Origin: a virus
Lineage: Duplodnaviria; Heunggongvirae; Uroviricota; Caudoviricetes
Direction: 5' to 3' (one strand)
Virus record (IMG/VR): IMGVR_UViG_2713896785_000020
DNA length: 4,025 nucleotides
The notes beneath the pieces are model-generated. The model searched no databases. It was not told the DNA's origin and worked only from the letters and a program-made list of their open reading frames with translations. Shown here one piece after another: positions 564 through 3,692 of the stretch. A program made the translations under genes and the position numbers. Positions within the stretch are counted from its first letter, which is position 1. Each line of letters begins with the position of its first letter.

Positions 564-798
564 AATTAAAGAAACACCAGTAGTACGTGATGAATATGGC
601 TGCTGGACGCATCCTGAATATGAAAAATTCTGTGACGGTCGGGAATATATTTCAACGGAAGAGTTTAACGCCTGGATGGAGGAAAATAATCTTCAATANN
701 NNNNNNNNNNNNNNNNNNNNNNNNNNNNNNNNNNNNNNNNNNNNNNNNAACTAAATACTGAAGATTTAAATCAGAAACGATTTTTATTAAATCCTTAA
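556..798 (+). CDS. hypothetical protein; body interrupted by the N run, so the 3' end and length are unverified
   Basis: ATG at 556 is preceded by GGGAGA (544-549) with a 6-nt spacer. 47 clean codons (MNEIKETPVVRDEYGCWTHPEYEKFCDGREYISTEEFNAWMEENNLQ) before the N run. The stop at 796-798 is valid only if the N run preserves frame, which is not guaranteed (see the hok evidence). Confidence 0.45.
   Translation: MNEIKETPVVRDEYGCWTHPEYEKFCDGREYISTEEFNAWMEENNLQXXXXXXXXXXXXXXXXXXLNTEDLNQKRFLLNP
699..748. other. run of 50 N (unknown or masked sequence)
   Basis: Literal n characters in the sequence. True length of the hidden segment is unknown. Confidence 0.95.
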
Positions 799-1034: not shown

Positions 1035-1613
1035 ATGAGAGACATTGATGTAAGAAAGGCTGTGCATGCCAAGATTCTGAGAGATCATCATAAAGATCCT
1101 GACACCCTAATCATTGATGAGTTTACGATGAATCTAGGGGCTAGCAGAGCTGATATAGCAGTGATCAATGGGCTTATACATGGTTATGAGTTGAAGAGCA
1201 AGAGTGATAACTTGCTCAGATTACCAGCGCAGGTGCAACATTACTCATCAGTGATGGATAAAGTAACTTTGGTTGTCTCTGATTGCCATCTTTATGATGC
1301 TTTAAGCATAGTTCCATCATGGTGGGGGATAAAGCAAGTTACGCAAGGTGCACGGCAAGGTATCCATTTAAAAACAATTCGAACTAGCAAGTTGAATCCA
1401 CAAGTGGACAAACTTTCCTTAACAATGCTTCTTTGGAAAGATGAATTGCTTTCCCTATTAAGTGATGTAGGGGAGCTACAGAATTTGAAAAATAAACCTA
1501 AACGCGTCTTATGGTCAAAACTCGCCAATAGTATGGATGTTGGCGAGCTTCGTGAAGCTGTTCGAGTTAAACTTAAAGCCCGTAAAGAGTGGCGAGTTGC
1601 TCAACAACCTTAG
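1035..1613 (+). CDS. PD-(D/E)xK nuclease-fold protein, sce7726-like small partner protein
   Basis: 192-codon ORF; ATG 1035 is the first start after an in-frame TGA at 1017-1019. N-terminal region shows the classic arrangement ..LIIDEF.. (E29), ..RADIAVI.. (D40), ..GYELKS.. (E52-x-K54), i.e. acidic residues on consecutive predicted strands followed by ExK. Weak Shine-Dalgarno. Family assignment is from remembered motifs, not a search. Confidence 0.7.
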   Translation: MRDIDVRKAVHAKILRDHHKDPDTLIIDEFTMNLGASRADIAVINGLIHGYELKSKSDNLLRLPAQVQHYSSVMDKVTLVVSDCHLYDALSIVPSWWGIKQVTQGARQGIHLKTIRTSKLNPQVDKLSLTMLLWKDELLSLLSDVGELQNLKNKPKRVLWSKLANSMDVGELREAVRVKLKARKEWRVAQQP

Positions 1614-2670
1614 TTATGTGATGGTTTTGCCCAATCCTACGCCATACCTCTGGGCTACCAAATTTATAGTTACCAGAGGGATTGGCTTTGTAGGCTTGAT
1701 ACTCGTTTGCATAATATTCTATGTCTCTATCTCCCGCACAGAATGTAGGCCCTGAATATTCTCGATGAGCAAGAATATCCTCACTATGTTTACCATATTG
1801 TTCATAACCAAAGCGATTAGCTACTCTTCCTCGAAATACCCAAAAGTCATTATCTCCAGAGTATCTGACGCTGGCAGATACGCTAGGGAATCGCGTCGAA
1901 AGCCTATTAAAGTCGGGGTGCTGTACTCCATAATCACTATAAATCACATTTCTGGCAAGTTCTTTTCTATTCATTAAACTCTGCCATAAAATCCACTCGA
2001 TTCGAGGTTGAGAATATAGACCAACAGAAATATCACTGAGATCTGTAGGAAATGAACCCCCAGAAAGAATCACTTTTCTGTATTCATTGAGGTGCGCCAG
2101 ATTGTTTATCAATCCCATTGCCAAAGTATATAGTTCGCCGGAATTAATTTTATCCTCGGTTAACTCATCTCTTAAGTCAATAATTATATCAATATTTGAT
2201 AAAGGAATTCCCAGATGATTAATGTAATGCGTTATTAATTGTGGGTTAACCAGATCTAACGTGGTTAATCTCAAGCATATTTCATTCTGCATTAATTCAT
2301 CAATCGCTCTTTTATAGTTAGATGGGCGAGTTGGTGAACTGACAGGAATAACTCTTATCCCCATATCTCTAACTTGATTAACCGCATTTATTATAGGGTA
2401 ATGATCTTCAGGAGAAATAAAATGCTCTTCAATTAATAATCCATCAATATAAACACCTTGCATATCTGAGCAAGATTTTGAGACTTTCTTTCCGAACTCT
2501 ATAAGAGTCTCGTTATAACTCTTTAAGGCAATACCTGAATCAGGGTCAATTGGCACTGGTTCAATTTCGAGTAATGGCAAAATTTTTGATTTCTTTTCAA
2601 TGGATAGCTGCGATAAAGCTGATAACTCAGAACGTTTCGCTTTCAGAATAGGAATATATGAAATTGTCAT
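1573..2670 (-). CDS. Beta-protein family protein (sce7725-like; as I recall, Pfam Beta_protein PF14350)
   Basis: 365-codon ORF on the minus strand. Start ATG (complement of 2668-2670) is preceded by AAGG with a 7-nt spacer. The N-terminus MTISYIPILKAKRSELSAL matches the conserved Y-x-P-I-L-K-x-K-x-x-E start I associate with Beta-protein/sce7725-type proteins. Very AT-rich coding sequence. Confidence 0.8.
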   Translation of the reverse strand: MTISYIPILKAKRSELSALSQLSIEKKSKILPLLEIEPVPIDPDSGIALKSYNETLIEFGKKVSKSCSDMQGVYIDGLLIEEHFISPEDHYPIINAVNQVRDMGIRVIPVSSPTRPSNYKRAIDELMQNEICLRLTTLDLVNPQLITHYINHLGIPLSNIDIIIDLRDELTEDKINSGELYTLAMGLINNLAHLNEYRKVILSGGSFPTDLSDISVGLYSQPRIEWILWQSLMNRKELARNVIYSDYGVQHPDFNRLSTRFPSVSASVRYSGDNDFWVFRGRVANRFGYEQYGKHSEDILAHREYSGPTFCAGDRDIEYYANEYQAYKANPSGNYKFGSPEVWRRIGQNHHITKVVEQLATLYGL

Positions 2671-3022
2671 GTTAATACCTTATACAGAATCAATTAACAA
2701 TTAATGGTTCTTCGGACATTGAAATTTATATCGCAAAAATTGGCAAACTCTCCTCGACTACTCACTTGTGGGTATCCTGGCGTAAAAGGAATGACTTGGC
2801 AATACCCGGTGTGATCATAAGTCATTGAAAATGATCATTTTTATCAGTCTTTCTTCCATGATGAATGCTAATGCCATTTGATTTGTTGAGGTGAAAACTG
2901 TTAAAAATCAAAACGATGTAATTGAAATGAACGTTCGGTAGCATTCACGCTTTAAATGTTTCTTTTGTGCTGATTGGATGAATTTGGGTCACTTATGATG
3001 AGAGATGTTGCAGGAAAAGAAG

Positions 3023-3051
3023 TTGGCATTGATCTATTGGATAGTTAGAAT
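3023..3051 (+). promoter_or_regulatory. sigma70-type promoter of the hok/mok mRNA
   Basis: -35 TTGGCA (3023-3028), 17-bp spacer, -10 TAGAAT (3046-3051). The predicted transcript start near 3058 (GGGTGCTTGAGGCTATCTGCCTC) resembles the 5' end of the plasmid R1 hok mRNA as I remember it. Confidence 0.45.
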
Positions 3052-3109
3052 TGCTGCGGGTGCTTGAGGCTATCTGCCTCAGGCATGAACACCAAAAGGC
3101 AGATAGAGA

Positions 3110-3180
3110 AAAGCCCCAGTTAACATTACGCGTCCGGCAAGACGCTTAACATTAATCTGAGGCCAATTTCATGCTTTGCA
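3110..3180 (-). ncRNA. sok: sok-like antisense RNA (antitoxin), approximate boundaries
   Basis: Minus-strand promoter-like elements at the position expected for sok: -35 TTGCCT (complement of 3209-3214), 17-bp spacer, -10 TAACCT (complement of 3186-3191). The transcript would be antisense to the mok Shine-Dalgarno/start region. The 3' end is not defined by a clear terminator, so coordinates are approximate. Confidence 0.4.
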
Positions 3181-3313
3181 CATGTAGGTTAGCCTCTTAC
3201 GTGCCGAAAGGCAAGGAGAAGCAGGCTATGAAGCAGCAAANNNNNNNNNNNNNNNNNNNNNNNNNNNNNNNNNNNNNNNNNNNNNNNNNNCAGCTTACGA
3301 ACCTGAGGAGTAA
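3171..3313 (+). CDS. mok: mok-like reading frame: in-frame N-terminal extension of hok (MLCTCRLASYVPKGKEKQA-MKQQ..), interrupted by N run
   Basis: ATG 3171 is preceded by GAGG (3156-3159) and is in frame with hok ATG 3228, with no stop between. This resembles chromosomal MokC as I recall it (MLNTCRVPLTDRKVKEKRA-MKQHKAM..). Body hidden by N run 3241-3290. Confidence 0.4.
3228..3313 (+). CDS. hok: Hok/Gef family type I toxin (HokC/HokD-like); most of the CDS is hidden by the N run
   Basis: AAGGAG at 3213-3218, then ATG 3228 reading MKQQ before the N run. After the run the frame reads ..AYEPEE then TAA (3311-3313), a Hok-family C-terminus. The surrounding leader and 3' UTR are homologous in layout to hok/sok. 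ATG-to-stop is 86 nt, not a multiple of 3, so the N run does not preserve the true length. Confidence 0.75.
3241..3290. other. run of 50 N inside hok; hidden segment is not length-preserving
   Basis: Literal n characters. The hok start and stop on either side are out of frame with each other across the run, and a Hok of about 50 aa would need roughly 120 hidden nt rather than 50. Confidence 0.9.
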
Positions 3314-3320
3314 GAGACCC

Positions 3321-3375
3321 GGCGAGGGAGAAATCCCTCGCCACCTCTGATGTGTCAGGCATCCTCAATGCACCC
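3321..3375 (+). promoter_or_regulatory. structured hok 3' UTR: perfect 9-bp hairpin plus fbi-like element complementary to the mRNA 5' end
   Basis: GGCGAGGGA (3321-3329), loop GAAA, TCCCTCGCC (3334-3342). CCTCAATGCACCC (3363-3375) is complementary to GGGTGCTTGAGG (3058-3069) with a one-nucleotide bulge, as expected for hok mRNA fold-back inhibition. Confidence 0.5.
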
Positions 3376-3381
3376 GCACTT

Positions 3382-3407
3382 AACCCGCTTCGGCGGGTTT
3401 ATTTTAT
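3382..3407 (+). terminator. intrinsic (rho-independent) terminator of the hok transcript
   Basis: AACCCGC (3382-3388), loop TTCG, GCGGGTT (3393-3399), followed by a T-rich tract TTATTTTAT. Confidence 0.7.
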
Positions 3408-3692
3408 CTGTAAATATTTTTATAAAAATAATGCCCACACACAGCATAAAACAAAAAGTATCACAGATAAAAAAGGAGCGTAATGTGCAGATTTGTTGTT
3501 TTCCATATTTACTCACTTTAACATAATCAATATTGATATGGTTGTTGTTTCGGTGGTTTCAAACGAGATGTTATGGTGATCTGGTAAAATTGCATAACAT
3601 TAAAATTTAATTTATCTAATCGCTTTTAATAATAAGCGTTGTGTTTATCCCAACAATCTGTTGTTTGACTTTTATTCCATTAATGTAGGGGC

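What the first reader, a model, noticed from the sequence alone, without database searches (positions are those of the whole stretch)
3023..3407. Complete-looking hok/mok/sok type I toxin-antitoxin locus divergent from the cassette
All regulatory hallmarks I associate with hok/sok are visible: promoter, 5' element GGGTGCTTGAGG complementary to 3' CCTCAATGCACCC (fold-back inhibition), GAGG plus ATG for mok in frame with hok, hok Shine-Dalgarno and MKQQ start, AYEPEE-stop C-terminus, a sok-type promoter on the opposite strand, a 9-bp perfect hairpin and an intrinsic terminator. An intact addiction module next to the cassette would stabilise the element. It starts like HokD/RelF (MKQQ) but lacks relBE upstream, so it is a separate hok locus.
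Basis: partly seen in the sequence, partly recalled or inferred. Interest (0 to 1): 0.5.

Follow-up and report, generated by a model that had tools for sequence, protein, structure and literature searches.

The report
Intact prophage hokD/mok/sok toxin-antitoxin locus
This is an ordinary, already annotated hok/mok/sok RNA-controlled toxin-antitoxin locus (the complete form of E. coli hokD) sitting in a lambda-like prophage, found in about three quarters of complete E. coli genomes.

Summary
The three non-N parts of the window are 100% identical to E. coli 2013C-3264 (NZ_CP027544.1). In that record the 50-N run at 3241-3290 stands for 120 real bases. The recovered gene is uninterrupted: a 51-aa protein identical to K-12 HokD (Pfam Hok/Gef, E=1.2e-23).

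All the regulatory parts of the hok family are present:
- a hok promoter, and a 5' tac element that pairs with the 3' fbi element. This pairing is in the minimum-energy fold and is kept by compensatory changes across 19 loci from seven or more genera.
- a 5' leader that matches Rfam RF01794 at 119.8 bits (cut-off 59).
- an in-frame mok leader reading frame.
- a sok promoter and a predicted 71-nt antisense RNA, collinear with the annotated and experimentally tested sokW of phage Sp5.
- a 9-bp 3' hairpin and an intrinsic terminator.

This is not a hok locus separate from hokD: it is the intact form of hokD, in the same prophage position as in K-12 Qin, where everything upstream of the hok ribosome-binding site has been replaced by relBE. 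The "addiction" role is untested.

The locus occurs in 4018 of 5426 complete E. coli genomes and is annotated as hokD in RefSeq. It is already known and of low interest.

The parts
3023..3051 (+). hok promoter: -35 TTGGCA (3023-3028), 17-nt spacer, -10 TAGAAT (3046-3051)
   Evidence: Consensus scan, 10 of 12 matches. The -10 is conserved at -12 to -7 relative to the RNA 5' end in 19 of 19 loci, while the -35 varies. Homology to 933W/Sp5 begins at the -10.
3058..3407 (+). Full-length hok mRNA. True length is about 419 nt, because the 50-N run hides 120 nt.
   Evidence: Position 1 of the Rfam leader model falls at 3058. The terminator is at 3382-3407. Minimum-energy fold is -175.2 kcal/mol, z = -8.6.
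3058..3069 (+). tac (translational activator) element, GGGTGCTTGAGG
   Evidence: Pairs with fbi in the minimum-energy fold. Compensatory changes across loci. Pairs with ucb in the Rfam consensus structure.
3111..3117 (+). ucb / anti-SD of mok, AAGCCCC. It sequesters the mok GAGG in the closed form and pairs with tac in the open form.
   Evidence: In the minimum-energy fold GCCCCAG pairs with CUGAGGC. The Rfam structure pairs it with tac. Element definitions are from PMC9841398.
3159..3162 (+). mok Shine-Dalgarno sequence, GAGG
   Evidence: Read directly from the sequence. Columns G102-C106 are invariant across 19 loci.
3171..3313 (+). mok reading frame. It is 70 codons once the hidden bases are restored, in frame with hok and sharing its stop.
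   Evidence: Translation gives MLCTCRLASYVPKGKEKQA followed by HokD. mokW/hokW are annotated the same way in phage VT2-Sakai.
3109..3179 (-). Predicted Sok antisense RNA, about 71 nt. It has a 15-nt single-stranded 5' tail covering the mok AUG, then a long hairpin and UUUU.
   Evidence: Collinear with the annotated 71-nt sokW. Fold is -28.6 kcal/mol, z = -4.7. The ends are inferred by homology and were not mapped here.
3186..3214 (-). sok promoter: -35 TTGCCT (3214-3209), 17-nt spacer, -10 TAACCT (3191-3186)
   Evidence: Conserved in position in 19 of 19 loci. It is 38/38 identical to the sokW promoter region. The sokW -10 was mutated with loss of antitoxin activity in PMC8621323, as deduced from primers YO-421/422.
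3192..3200 (+). dcb region, GCCTCTTAC. It pairs with the mok SD in the open form. In the closed-form fold CTCTTAC pairs with GTAAGAG at the hok stop.
   Evidence: The Rfam structure pairs GAGGC with GCCUC. Helix 9 is 100% paired in 19 loci but does not vary.
3214..3218 (+). hok Shine-Dalgarno sequence, AGGAG
   Evidence: Read directly from the sequence. Homology to K-12 hokD begins at exactly this point.
3228..3313 (+). hok (hokD) coding sequence. It is truly 156 nt / 51 aa; 120 nt are hidden under the 50-N run at 3241-3290.
   Evidence: Sequence recovered from the 100% identical record. The protein is identical to K-12 HokD. Pfam PF01848, E = 1.2e-23.
3321..3342 (+). 9-bp perfect hairpin with a GAAA loop; expected 3'-terminal protective stem-loop of the processed mRNA
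   Evidence: Present in the minimum-energy fold. Helix 19 is 86% paired across 19 loci with 2 compensatory pairs. The role is inferred from R1 work in PMC9841398.
3363..3375 (+). fbi (fold-back inhibitory) element, CCTCAATGCACCC
   Evidence: Pairs with tac. Found 45-56 nt after the stop codon in 17 of 19 loci, with covariation.
3382..3407 (+). Intrinsic terminator: 7-bp GC-rich stem, TTCG loop and T-rich tail
   Evidence: Terminator scan. Homology to most E. coli copies ends here.

Best explanation
Window 3023-3407 is an intact hokD-type hok/mok/sok type I toxin-antitoxin locus. It is carried as a self-contained unit, with its own promoter and terminator, in the region between the replication genes and the Q antiterminator gene of a lambda-like prophage of a Shiga-toxin-type E. 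coli.

Mechanism, inferred by homology to R1 hok/sok and Sp5 hokW/sokW:
1. The + strand promoter makes a roughly 419-nt mRNA.
2. The 5' tac element of that mRNA pairs with the 3' fbi element. This locks the mok ribosome-binding site against the ucb element, so the full-length RNA is neither translated nor bound by Sok.
3. Slow 3' trimming removes fbi, back to the 9-bp hairpin.
4. tac then pairs with ucb. This exposes the mok ribosome-binding site and the Sok target.
5. A roughly 71-nt unstable antisense RNA (Sok) is made from the minus-strand promoter at 3214-3186. It pairs through its 15-nt 5' tail with the mok start region, blocks mok translation and hence the coupled hok translation, and marks the duplex for RNase III.
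6. If Sok supply falls, the stable processed mRNA is translated. The 51-aa HokD peptide then depolarises the inner membrane.

What is shown here: every sequence and structure element, the intact reading frame, and family membership. What is inferred: transcription of both RNAs, processing, and killing.

The biological role is open among three options. Given the prophage context and the hokW precedent, the most likely is help with lysis or abortive killing on prophage induction or Sok loss.
For: - Source and hidden sequence: 100% identity of all three non-N segments to NZ_CP027544.1, which is annotated hokD there. The hidden 120 nt restore an intact 51-aa reading frame identical to K-12 HokD.
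- Toxin family: Pfam HOK_GEF, 82.9 bits against a cut-off of 22.
- Leader RNA: Rfam RF01794, 119.8 bits against 59, full length 1-157.
- tac/fbi: present in the minimum-energy fold. It is conserved at a fixed distance after the stop codon in 17 of 19 loci from Escherichia, Kluyvera, Citrobacter, Pseudocitrobacter, Pantoea, Erwinia and Photorhabdus. It shows compensatory T-A to C-G and G-C to A-T changes.
- Whole structure: 84% of cells paired, against about 40% when the partners are slid.
- mok: in frame with hok, as annotated for mokW/hokW.
- Sok: the region and promoter are collinear with the annotated sokW and identical to it in the terminator hairpin (54/54) and promoter (38/38). sokW was shown to counteract HokW, with partial dependence on RNase III and Hfq (PMC8621323).
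- Toxicity: the K-12 HokD coding sequence, which encodes the same protein as here, was used as a previously characterised toxic control in bioRxiv 10.1101/2025.08.07.668861.
- Context: a lambda-like prophage, between the DUF977 gene, small hypothetical genes and the cassette on one side, and a hypothetical gene, DUF968, RusA and Q on the other.
Against: - No expression data exist for this strain.
- The sok -10 matches the consensus in only 3 of 6 positions and was missed by the consensus scan.
- The minimum-energy fold of a 3'-trimmed RNA shows the 5' metastable hairpin rather than the tac/ucb stem. The open conformation is therefore supported only by the Rfam covariance model, not by energy minimisation.
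- Chromosomal hok loci tested earlier did not mediate post-segregational killing (cited).
- The strain carries 7 hok-like places, so cross-regulation by other Sok RNAs is possible.
Confidence: 0.93

Rival explanations
1. The locus looks intact but is functionally silent as an addiction (post-segregational killing) module. It does not stabilise the prophage or the neighbouring cassette and is simply hitch-hiking selfish DNA.
For: - Earlier tests of chromosomal hokA, hokB and hokC loci found no post-segregational killing and no activation by rifampicin (summarised in bioRxiv 10.1101/2025.08.07.668861).
- The locus is present in 4018 of 5426 genomes, often in several copies. Paralogous Sok RNAs could buffer the loss of any one copy.
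- Only 93 genomes have it next to this cassette.
Against: - All regulatory elements are kept, with compensatory changes across genera. That argues for continued selection on the RNA switch.
- The closely related hokW/sokW is active.
- The Sok 5' tail target differs from hokW at 7 of 18 positions while its flanks are identical. This suggests each copy keeps a private antitoxin.
Confidence: 0.3
2. Its role is phage-directed, as for hokW/sokW. On SOS induction Sok falls and HokD accumulates, speeding lysis and phage release. It is not a maintenance device.
For: - Takada et al. showed that mitomycin C lowers sokW, raises HokW in a RecA-dependent way, and that deleting the locus halves the number of Sp5 phages released (PMC8621323).
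- Here hok is on the same strand as the early-right genes from cro to Q. Read-through on induction would therefore be sense to hok and antisense to sok (inference).
- hok genes are enriched four-fold in prophages.
Against: - hokW sits in a different part of its phage genome, next to different genes.
- Whether this prophage is inducible is unknown: its DUF968 gene is frameshifted.
- No data exist for this copy.
Confidence: 0.35
3. It acts as an abortive-infection defence. A superinfecting phage shuts off host transcription, Sok decays and Hok kills the cell. Together with the adjacent PD-Lambda-2-like cassette it would form a small defence island in the prophage.
For: - R1 hok/sok is cited as implicated in phage defence (its reference 27).
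- The neighbouring genes match PADLOC PD-Lambda-2_C (1.8e-41) and 'cll' (2.4e-28).
Against: - A systematic survey found no enrichment of hok next to defence systems.
- Hok itself has no PADLOC model hit.
- Adjacency to the cassette is rare, 93 genomes against 4018.
Confidence: 0.15
4. The hok gene is broken. The N run hides a deletion or frameshift, since 50 N would put the start and the end of the gene out of frame.
For: With the N run taken literally, the MKQQ frame reads through to QLTNLRSKRPGEGEIPRHL and not to AYEPEE.
Against: - Both N runs are exactly 50 long, yet they replace 188 and 120 bases in a record that is otherwise 100% identical over 3925 bases.
- The restored gene is intact.
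- hokD is annotated as intact in all listed relatives.
Confidence: 0.02

Closest known systems
hokD (relF) of E. coli K-12 cryptic prophage Qin
   Same: - The 51-aa protein is identical.
- The DNA is 98.4% identical over 257 nt, from the hok ribosome-binding site through fbi to the terminator.
- The position in a lambda-like prophage is the same, upstream of the DUF968 (ydfU) and Q antiterminator (ydfT) genes.
   Different: In K-12, homology stops 14 nt upstream of the hok ATG. The hok promoter, tac, ucb, mok start, the Sok RNA gene and the -10 and spacer of its promoter are replaced there by relB-relE. The literature describes that copy as inactivated by rearrangement (PMC12214031). The window has the complete regulatory 5' half.
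hokW/mokW/sokW of Stx2 phages Sp5 (VT2-Sakai) and 933W
   Same: - About 93% DNA identity over about 410 nt.
- The layout is the same: a 70-codon in-frame mok, a 51-aa Hok and a 71-nt antisense Sok.
- The sok promoter (38/38) and the Sok terminator hairpin (54/54) are identical.
- hokW/sokW has been shown experimentally to be a working type I toxin-antitoxin pair (PMC8621323).
   Different: - The Hok C-terminus differs: VFVDYESEK in HokW against VFTAYEPEE here.
- The Sok 5' tail and its target match at only 11 of 18 positions.
- The -35 region and the sequence after fbi are different.
- The position in the phage genome is different.
hok/mok/sok (parB) of plasmid R1, the founding member
   Same: - Same Hok/Gef toxin family.
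- Same set of RNA elements: tac, fbi, ucb, dcb, mok SD, a 3' stem-loop, and an antisense RNA over the mok start (definitions in PMC9841398).
   Different: - The proteins are only distantly alike. HokW, a close paralogue of this protein, is 44% identical to R1 Hok.
- As I recall the R1 sequence, mok there is in a different frame from hok; this was not checked here. In this window mok is in frame.
- The Sok terminator hairpin here carries extra sequence relative to the Rfam consensus (16 nt in the Rfam alignment; about 21 alignment columns).
- R1 is a plasmid; this locus is in a prophage.
hokC (gef)/mokC family of enterobacterial chromosomes
   Same: - The proteins are about 82% identical, with the same MKQ(H/Q)KAM start and KDLCEV core.
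- The leader architecture is the same and matches the same Rfam model.
   Different: - The short form of the Sok hairpin, without the extra sequence.
- A chromosomal rather than prophage location, as far as the record titles show.

Membership tests
hok/mok/sok type I toxin-antitoxin | Small hydrophobic toxin of the Hok/Gef family (Pfam PF01848) | tested here: met
   82.9 bits against a cut-off of 22, E = 1.2e-23, covering profile positions 1-42 of 42. Uses the sequence recovered from under the N run.
hok/mok/sok type I toxin-antitoxin | Intact toxin reading frame with its own ribosome-binding site | tested here: met
   A 51-aa reading frame with no frameshift or stop, and AGGAG 9 nt before the ATG.
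hok/mok/sok type I toxin-antitoxin | Overlapping upstream mok reading frame with a GAGG ribosome-binding site, to which hok translation is coupled | tested here: met
   GAGG at 3159-3162 and ATG at 3171 open a 70-codon frame that shares the hok stop. The layout is the same as annotated mokW/hokW. The coupling itself cannot be tested here.
hok/mok/sok type I toxin-antitoxin | Long-range 5' tac / 3' fbi pairing that closes the full-length mRNA | tested here: met
   A 12-bp helix with one bulge in the minimum-energy fold. Across 19 loci 89% of cells are paired and 4 pairs change on both sides. The element lies 45-56 nt after the stop codon in 17 of 19 loci.
hok/mok/sok type I toxin-antitoxin | Alternative open leader fold (tac/ucb stem, Sok-target hairpin, mok SD/dcb stem) | tested here: met
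   Full-length match to the Rfam RF01794 covariance model, whose consensus carries these stems: 119.8 bits against 59. Energy minimisation of a trimmed RNA did not reproduce the tac/ucb stem.
hok/mok/sok type I toxin-antitoxin | Antisense Sok RNA gene with its own promoter, complementary to the mok translation start | tested here: met
   Met at the sequence level. The promoter TTGCCT-17-TAACCT is conserved in 19 of 19 loci. The predicted 71-nt RNA has a free 5' tail over the mok AUG, a hairpin and a U tail. It is collinear with annotated sokW.
hok/mok/sok type I toxin-antitoxin | Sok is actually transcribed, is unstable, and neutralises hok | not testable with these tools
   Shown only for the 93% identical hokW/sokW (PMC8621323).
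hok/mok/sok type I toxin-antitoxin | 3' processing to a truncated, translatable mRNA ending in a protective stem-loop | tested here: inconclusive
   The 9-bp hairpin lies where expected and is conserved. Processing itself cannot be observed from sequence.
hok/mok/sok type I toxin-antitoxin | Toxin kills or arrests the cell when expressed | not testable with these tools
   The K-12 HokD coding sequence, identical in protein to this one, is listed among previously characterised toxic controls in bioRxiv 10.1101/2025.08.07.668861.
hokD orthologue (as opposed to another hok paralogue) | Protein identity and conserved position relative to K-12 hokD | tested here: met
   51/51 aa identical and 98.4% DNA identity over 257 nt. 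Downstream DNA reaching into the DUF968 (ydfU) gene is also homologous, at 83%. RefSeq names it hokD.
Plasmid/prophage addiction (post-segregational killing) module | Loss of the element kills the segregant cells | not testable with these tools
   No data for this locus. Earlier chromosomal hok loci were negative for this.

The most novel reading that the evidence does not exclude
The hok/sok unit may be wired into the prophage's own transcription programme. It points the same way as the early-right genes from cro to Q. Read-through on induction would therefore raise hok mRNA and, by collision, suppress sok. The toxin would then act as an induction-timed auxiliary lysis or abortive factor. Each of the strain's 7 hok-like copies would keep a private Sok 5' tail, so the copies would fire independently.
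Probability: 0.15. Interest if true: 0.35.

Novelty: already known. Interest (0 to 1): 0.08.

Why it matters
It matters little as a discovery. The locus is annotated as hokD in RefSeq, belongs to one of the oldest and best-studied toxin-antitoxin families, and occurs in about 74% of complete E. coli genomes.

It has three modest uses:
- It shows what the complete hokD locus looks like, whereas the K-12 reference copy is a rearranged remnant fused to relBE.
- It adds a case of a hok/sok unit next to a candidate defence cassette in the variable region of a lambda-like prophage.
- It is a caution that the N masks in these windows do not preserve length, so reading frames cannot be judged across them.

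Tried and rejected
- Reading the 50-N run literally gives an out-of-frame gene. Rejected because the mask hides 120 nt.
- The consensus promoter scan found no minus-strand promoter. The sok promoter was instead located by homology to sokW and by its conservation.
- The count of promoter-like sites is not above chance by itself: 2 found against 1.4 expected.
- Folding a 3'-trimmed mRNA to see the tac/ucb 'open' stem gave the 5' metastable hairpin instead. Energy minimisation therefore neither confirms nor refutes the open form.
- PADLOC gave no hit for Hok.
- The weak Rfam hits rsmX (E = 0.49) and ceN48 (E = 0.76) overlap the locus. They are far below their gathering scores and are chance matches to the terminator and to leader hairpins.
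- In the plasmid search, hits beyond the close relatives (about 88-98% identical) covered only short leader fragments. R1-type loci were therefore not aligned directly, and comparison with R1 rests on the literature and on Rfam.
- Two of the 19 comparison loci lacked a clear fbi. L046 (Photorhabdus) has a Hok protein 4 residues longer than its close relatives, and L048 (Shigella) is a frameshifted hok pseudogene.
Full report
**Source of the window and the N runs**

The window has two runs of exactly 50 N, at 699-748 and 3241-3290. A megablast of 2850-3500 against complete E. coli genomes found one record, NZ_CP027544.1 (strain 2013C-3264, human stool, USA), that matches at 100%. The match spans 721 bases there against 651 in the query. 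All three non-N segments of the window (698, 2492 and 735 bases) occur exactly and in order in that record. The N runs replace 188 and 120 real bases. The masks therefore do not preserve length. Read literally, the MKQQ start and the AYEPEE end are in different frames. With the real 120 bases the gene is 156 nt long and encodes MKQQKAMLIALIVICLTVIVTALVTRKDLCEVRIRTGQTEVAVFTAYEPEE.

**Checking the observation**

- The + strand promoter TTGGCA-17-TAGAAT lies at 3023-3051. It ends 7 nt before G3058, which is position 1 of the Rfam leader model.
- The scan count alone is not above chance: 2 sites found against 1.4 expected. However, the -10 box is conserved at -12 to -7 in 19 of 19 related loci.
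- GGGTGCTTGAGG (3058-3069) pairs with CCTCAATGCACCC (3363-3375) as 12 bp around one bulged T. This pairing is part of the minimum-energy structure of the 419-nt RNA (-175.2 kcal/mol, z = -8.6).
- The mok GAGG (3159-3162) and ATG (3171) open a 70-codon frame that is in frame with hok and shares its stop.
- The hok AGGAG (3214-3218), ATG (3228) and TAA (3311-3313), the 9-bp hairpin (3321-3342) and the terminator (3382-3407) are all as described.

**What it is**

The protein matches Pfam Hok/Gef (PF01848) at 82.9 bits, E = 1.2e-23. The leader at 3058-3233 matches Rfam RF01794 over the whole model at 119.8 bits, against a gathering score of 59, E = 6.6e-28. That model is named 'sok', but it hits the hok-sense strand. 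Its consensus pairs tac with ucb and the mok SD with dcb, so it describes the open 5' leader of the hok mRNA.

Le Rhun et al. (PMC9841398) summarise the family mechanism:
- The full-length RNA is closed by tac/fbi, with the mok SD held by ucb.
- 3' trimming lets tac pair with ucb and lets the mok SD pair with dcb. This allows both translation and Sok binding.
- The hok mRNA/Sok duplex is cut by RNase III.

In the full-length fold here, GCCCCAG (the ucb region, around 3113-3119) pairs with CUGAGGC, which contains the mok SD.

**The antisense gene**

Phage VT2-Sakai (Sp5) annotates sokW as a 71-nt minus-strand RNA overlapping the mokW start. Its mokW and hokW end at the same coordinate, so they are in frame. 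Transferred to the window by collinear alignment:
- Sok would start near 3179 and end near 3109.
- The promoter on the minus strand would be TTGCCT (3214-3209), a 17-nt spacer, then TAACCT (3191-3186).
- The scan missed this promoter because its -10 matches only 3 of 6. Both boxes are nevertheless conserved in position across 19 loci.
- Primers YO-421/422 of Takada et al. show that the 'pro-less' sokW mutant changes exactly this box (TAGGTTA to CCGGCTC on the + strand). That mutant lost protection.
- The predicted RNA folds into a 15-nt free 5' tail (GCAAAGCAUGAAAUU, complementary to the mok AUG region), a long hairpin and a U tail (-28.6 kcal/mol, z = -4.7).

**Comparison across species**

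A scan of one genome per species with the Hok protein returned 53 loci. Eighteen of the twenty loci scanned carried a full-length RF01794 match, from Escherichia, Shigella, Kluyvera, Citrobacter, Pseudocitrobacter, Pantoea, Erwinia and Photorhabdus.
- In 17 of 19 loci the first 12-14 nt find their best partner 45-56 nt after the hok stop codon.
- GGGTGC/GCACCC is replaced by GGGCGC/GCGCCC, and GAGG/CCTC by GAGA/TCTC, in other genera.
- On the alignment the tac/fbi helix has 89% of cells paired and 4 of 12 pairs changed on both sides.
- The whole fold has 84% of cells paired, against 37-43% when the partners are slid by one to three columns. It has 47 pairs with double changes, against 28.6 in shuffles.
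- The structure string came from this sequence's own fold, which favours it somewhat. The slid controls and the compensatory changes are still clear.

**Relation to hokD**

The protein is identical to K-12 HokD. BLAST against the K-12 Qin region shows 98.4% identity over 257 nt. The match starts at the hok AGGAG, 14 nt before the ATG, and runs through fbi to the terminator. A second block at 83% identity continues into the DUF968 gene ydfU. Upstream of that point K-12 has relE and relB.

[quoted passage not shown] The window carries the complete form in the same prophage position.

**Context and frequency**

The surrounding genes, in order, are: a LexA-family repressor, Cro/CI, YdaT, a 356-aa hypothetical protein (the 1,071-nt gene L001 1795-2865), DUF977, two small genes, the sce7726 and Beta-protein cassette, hokD, a 92-aa gene, DUF968 (frameshifted), RusA and a Q-type antiterminator. 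This is a lambda-like prophage. hok points the same way as cro to Q, and divergently from the Beta-protein gene (start at 2670).

- The 419-nt locus is covered at 80% or more in 4018 of 5426 complete E. coli genomes, with a median of 2 and up to 9 places per genome, and 541 places on plasmids.
- It is found in 110 phage records, where it is annotated hok/mok, hokW/mokW/sokW, gef or relF.
- It is found in 1583 plasmid records.
- Cassette and hok together occur in only 93 genomes.
- Homology to other copies starts at the -10 box and ends at the terminator. The unit therefore behaves as a self-contained mosaic module.
- A recent survey reports hok in about 80% of Enterobacteriaceae genomes, a four-fold enrichment in prophages, and no enrichment next to defence systems (bioRxiv 10.1101/2025.08.07.668861).

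**Function**

The molecular mechanism is inferred with high confidence from family membership. The biological role is not settled. Three options are on the table:
Earlier chromosomal hok loci were negative for post-segregational killing.
- Induction-linked help with lysis, as shown for hokW/sokW.
- Abortive infection.

I rank the hokW-like role first because of the prophage setting and the co-orientation with early transcription. None of the three was tested.

**Verdict**

The locus is already known and annotated. Interest is low.

Noticed in passing
window 699-748 and 3241-3290: Both N runs are exactly 50 long but hide 188 and 120 bases in the 100% identical record. Masks in these windows do not preserve length, so reading frames and spacings cannot be judged across them.
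   Followed up: yes
window 3058-3233 (+): Rfam family RF01794, named 'sok antitoxin', matches the hok-sense strand. It starts at the mRNA 5' end, and its consensus pairs tac with ucb and the mok SD with dcb. The model therefore describes the open hok mRNA leader rather than the antisense RNA.
   Followed up: partly
window 3162-3179 (Sok 5' tail target), compared with L003 (phage VT2-Sakai hokW): Between this locus and hokW, the Sok terminator hairpin (54/54) and the sok promoter (38/38) are identical, but the stretch bound by the Sok 5' tail matches at only 11 of 18 positions. This looks like divergence of antitoxin specificity between paralogues. The strain has 7 hok-like places.
   Followed up: partly
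window 3296-3299: The Tyr47 codon TAC is followed by G, giving UACG inside CAGC-UUACGAA-CCUG. This is the motif for TadA A-to-I mRNA editing, which recodes Tyr to Cys. Editing at 6% is reported for K-12 hokD (PMC12214031).
   Followed up: partly
window 1035-1613 (+) and 1573-2670 (-): The neighbouring 'cassette' is a pair of convergent genes that overlap by 41 nt. One is an sce7726-family protein (PADLOC 'cll', 2.4e-28; no Pfam hit). The other is a Beta-protein (PF14350, 3.8e-52; PADLOC PD-Lambda-2_C, 1.8e-41). It is a candidate anti-phage system, lacks the other PD-Lambda-2 genes, and is present next to hokD in 93 of 5426 genomes.
   Followed up: partly
L001 7273-8321 (just right of the window): The prophage's DUF968 gene is annotated as frameshifted, so the prophage may be partly defective.
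   Followed up: no
L051 250-640 (Erwinia sp. CGal63): A hok leader (RF01794, 133 bits) lies about 95 nt downstream of three CRISPR-DR4 repeats.
   Followed up: no
L018 (Acinetobacter idrijaensis), L023 (Xanthomonas pisi), L056 (Candidatus Scatousia MAG): Near-identical HokD matches (96-100%) occur in non-enterobacterial assemblies, on contigs of 275, 431 and 2,995 bp. These are most likely E. coli contamination of those assemblies.
   Followed up: no
window 3131-3146: Relative to the Rfam consensus and to about half of the compared loci, the Sok terminator hairpin carries extra sequence (cgtccggcaagacgc and flanking bases: 16 nt in the Rfam alignment, about 21 alignment columns). This lengthens the hairpin. 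It is shared by hokW and several Kluyvera and enterobacterial loci.
   Followed up: partly
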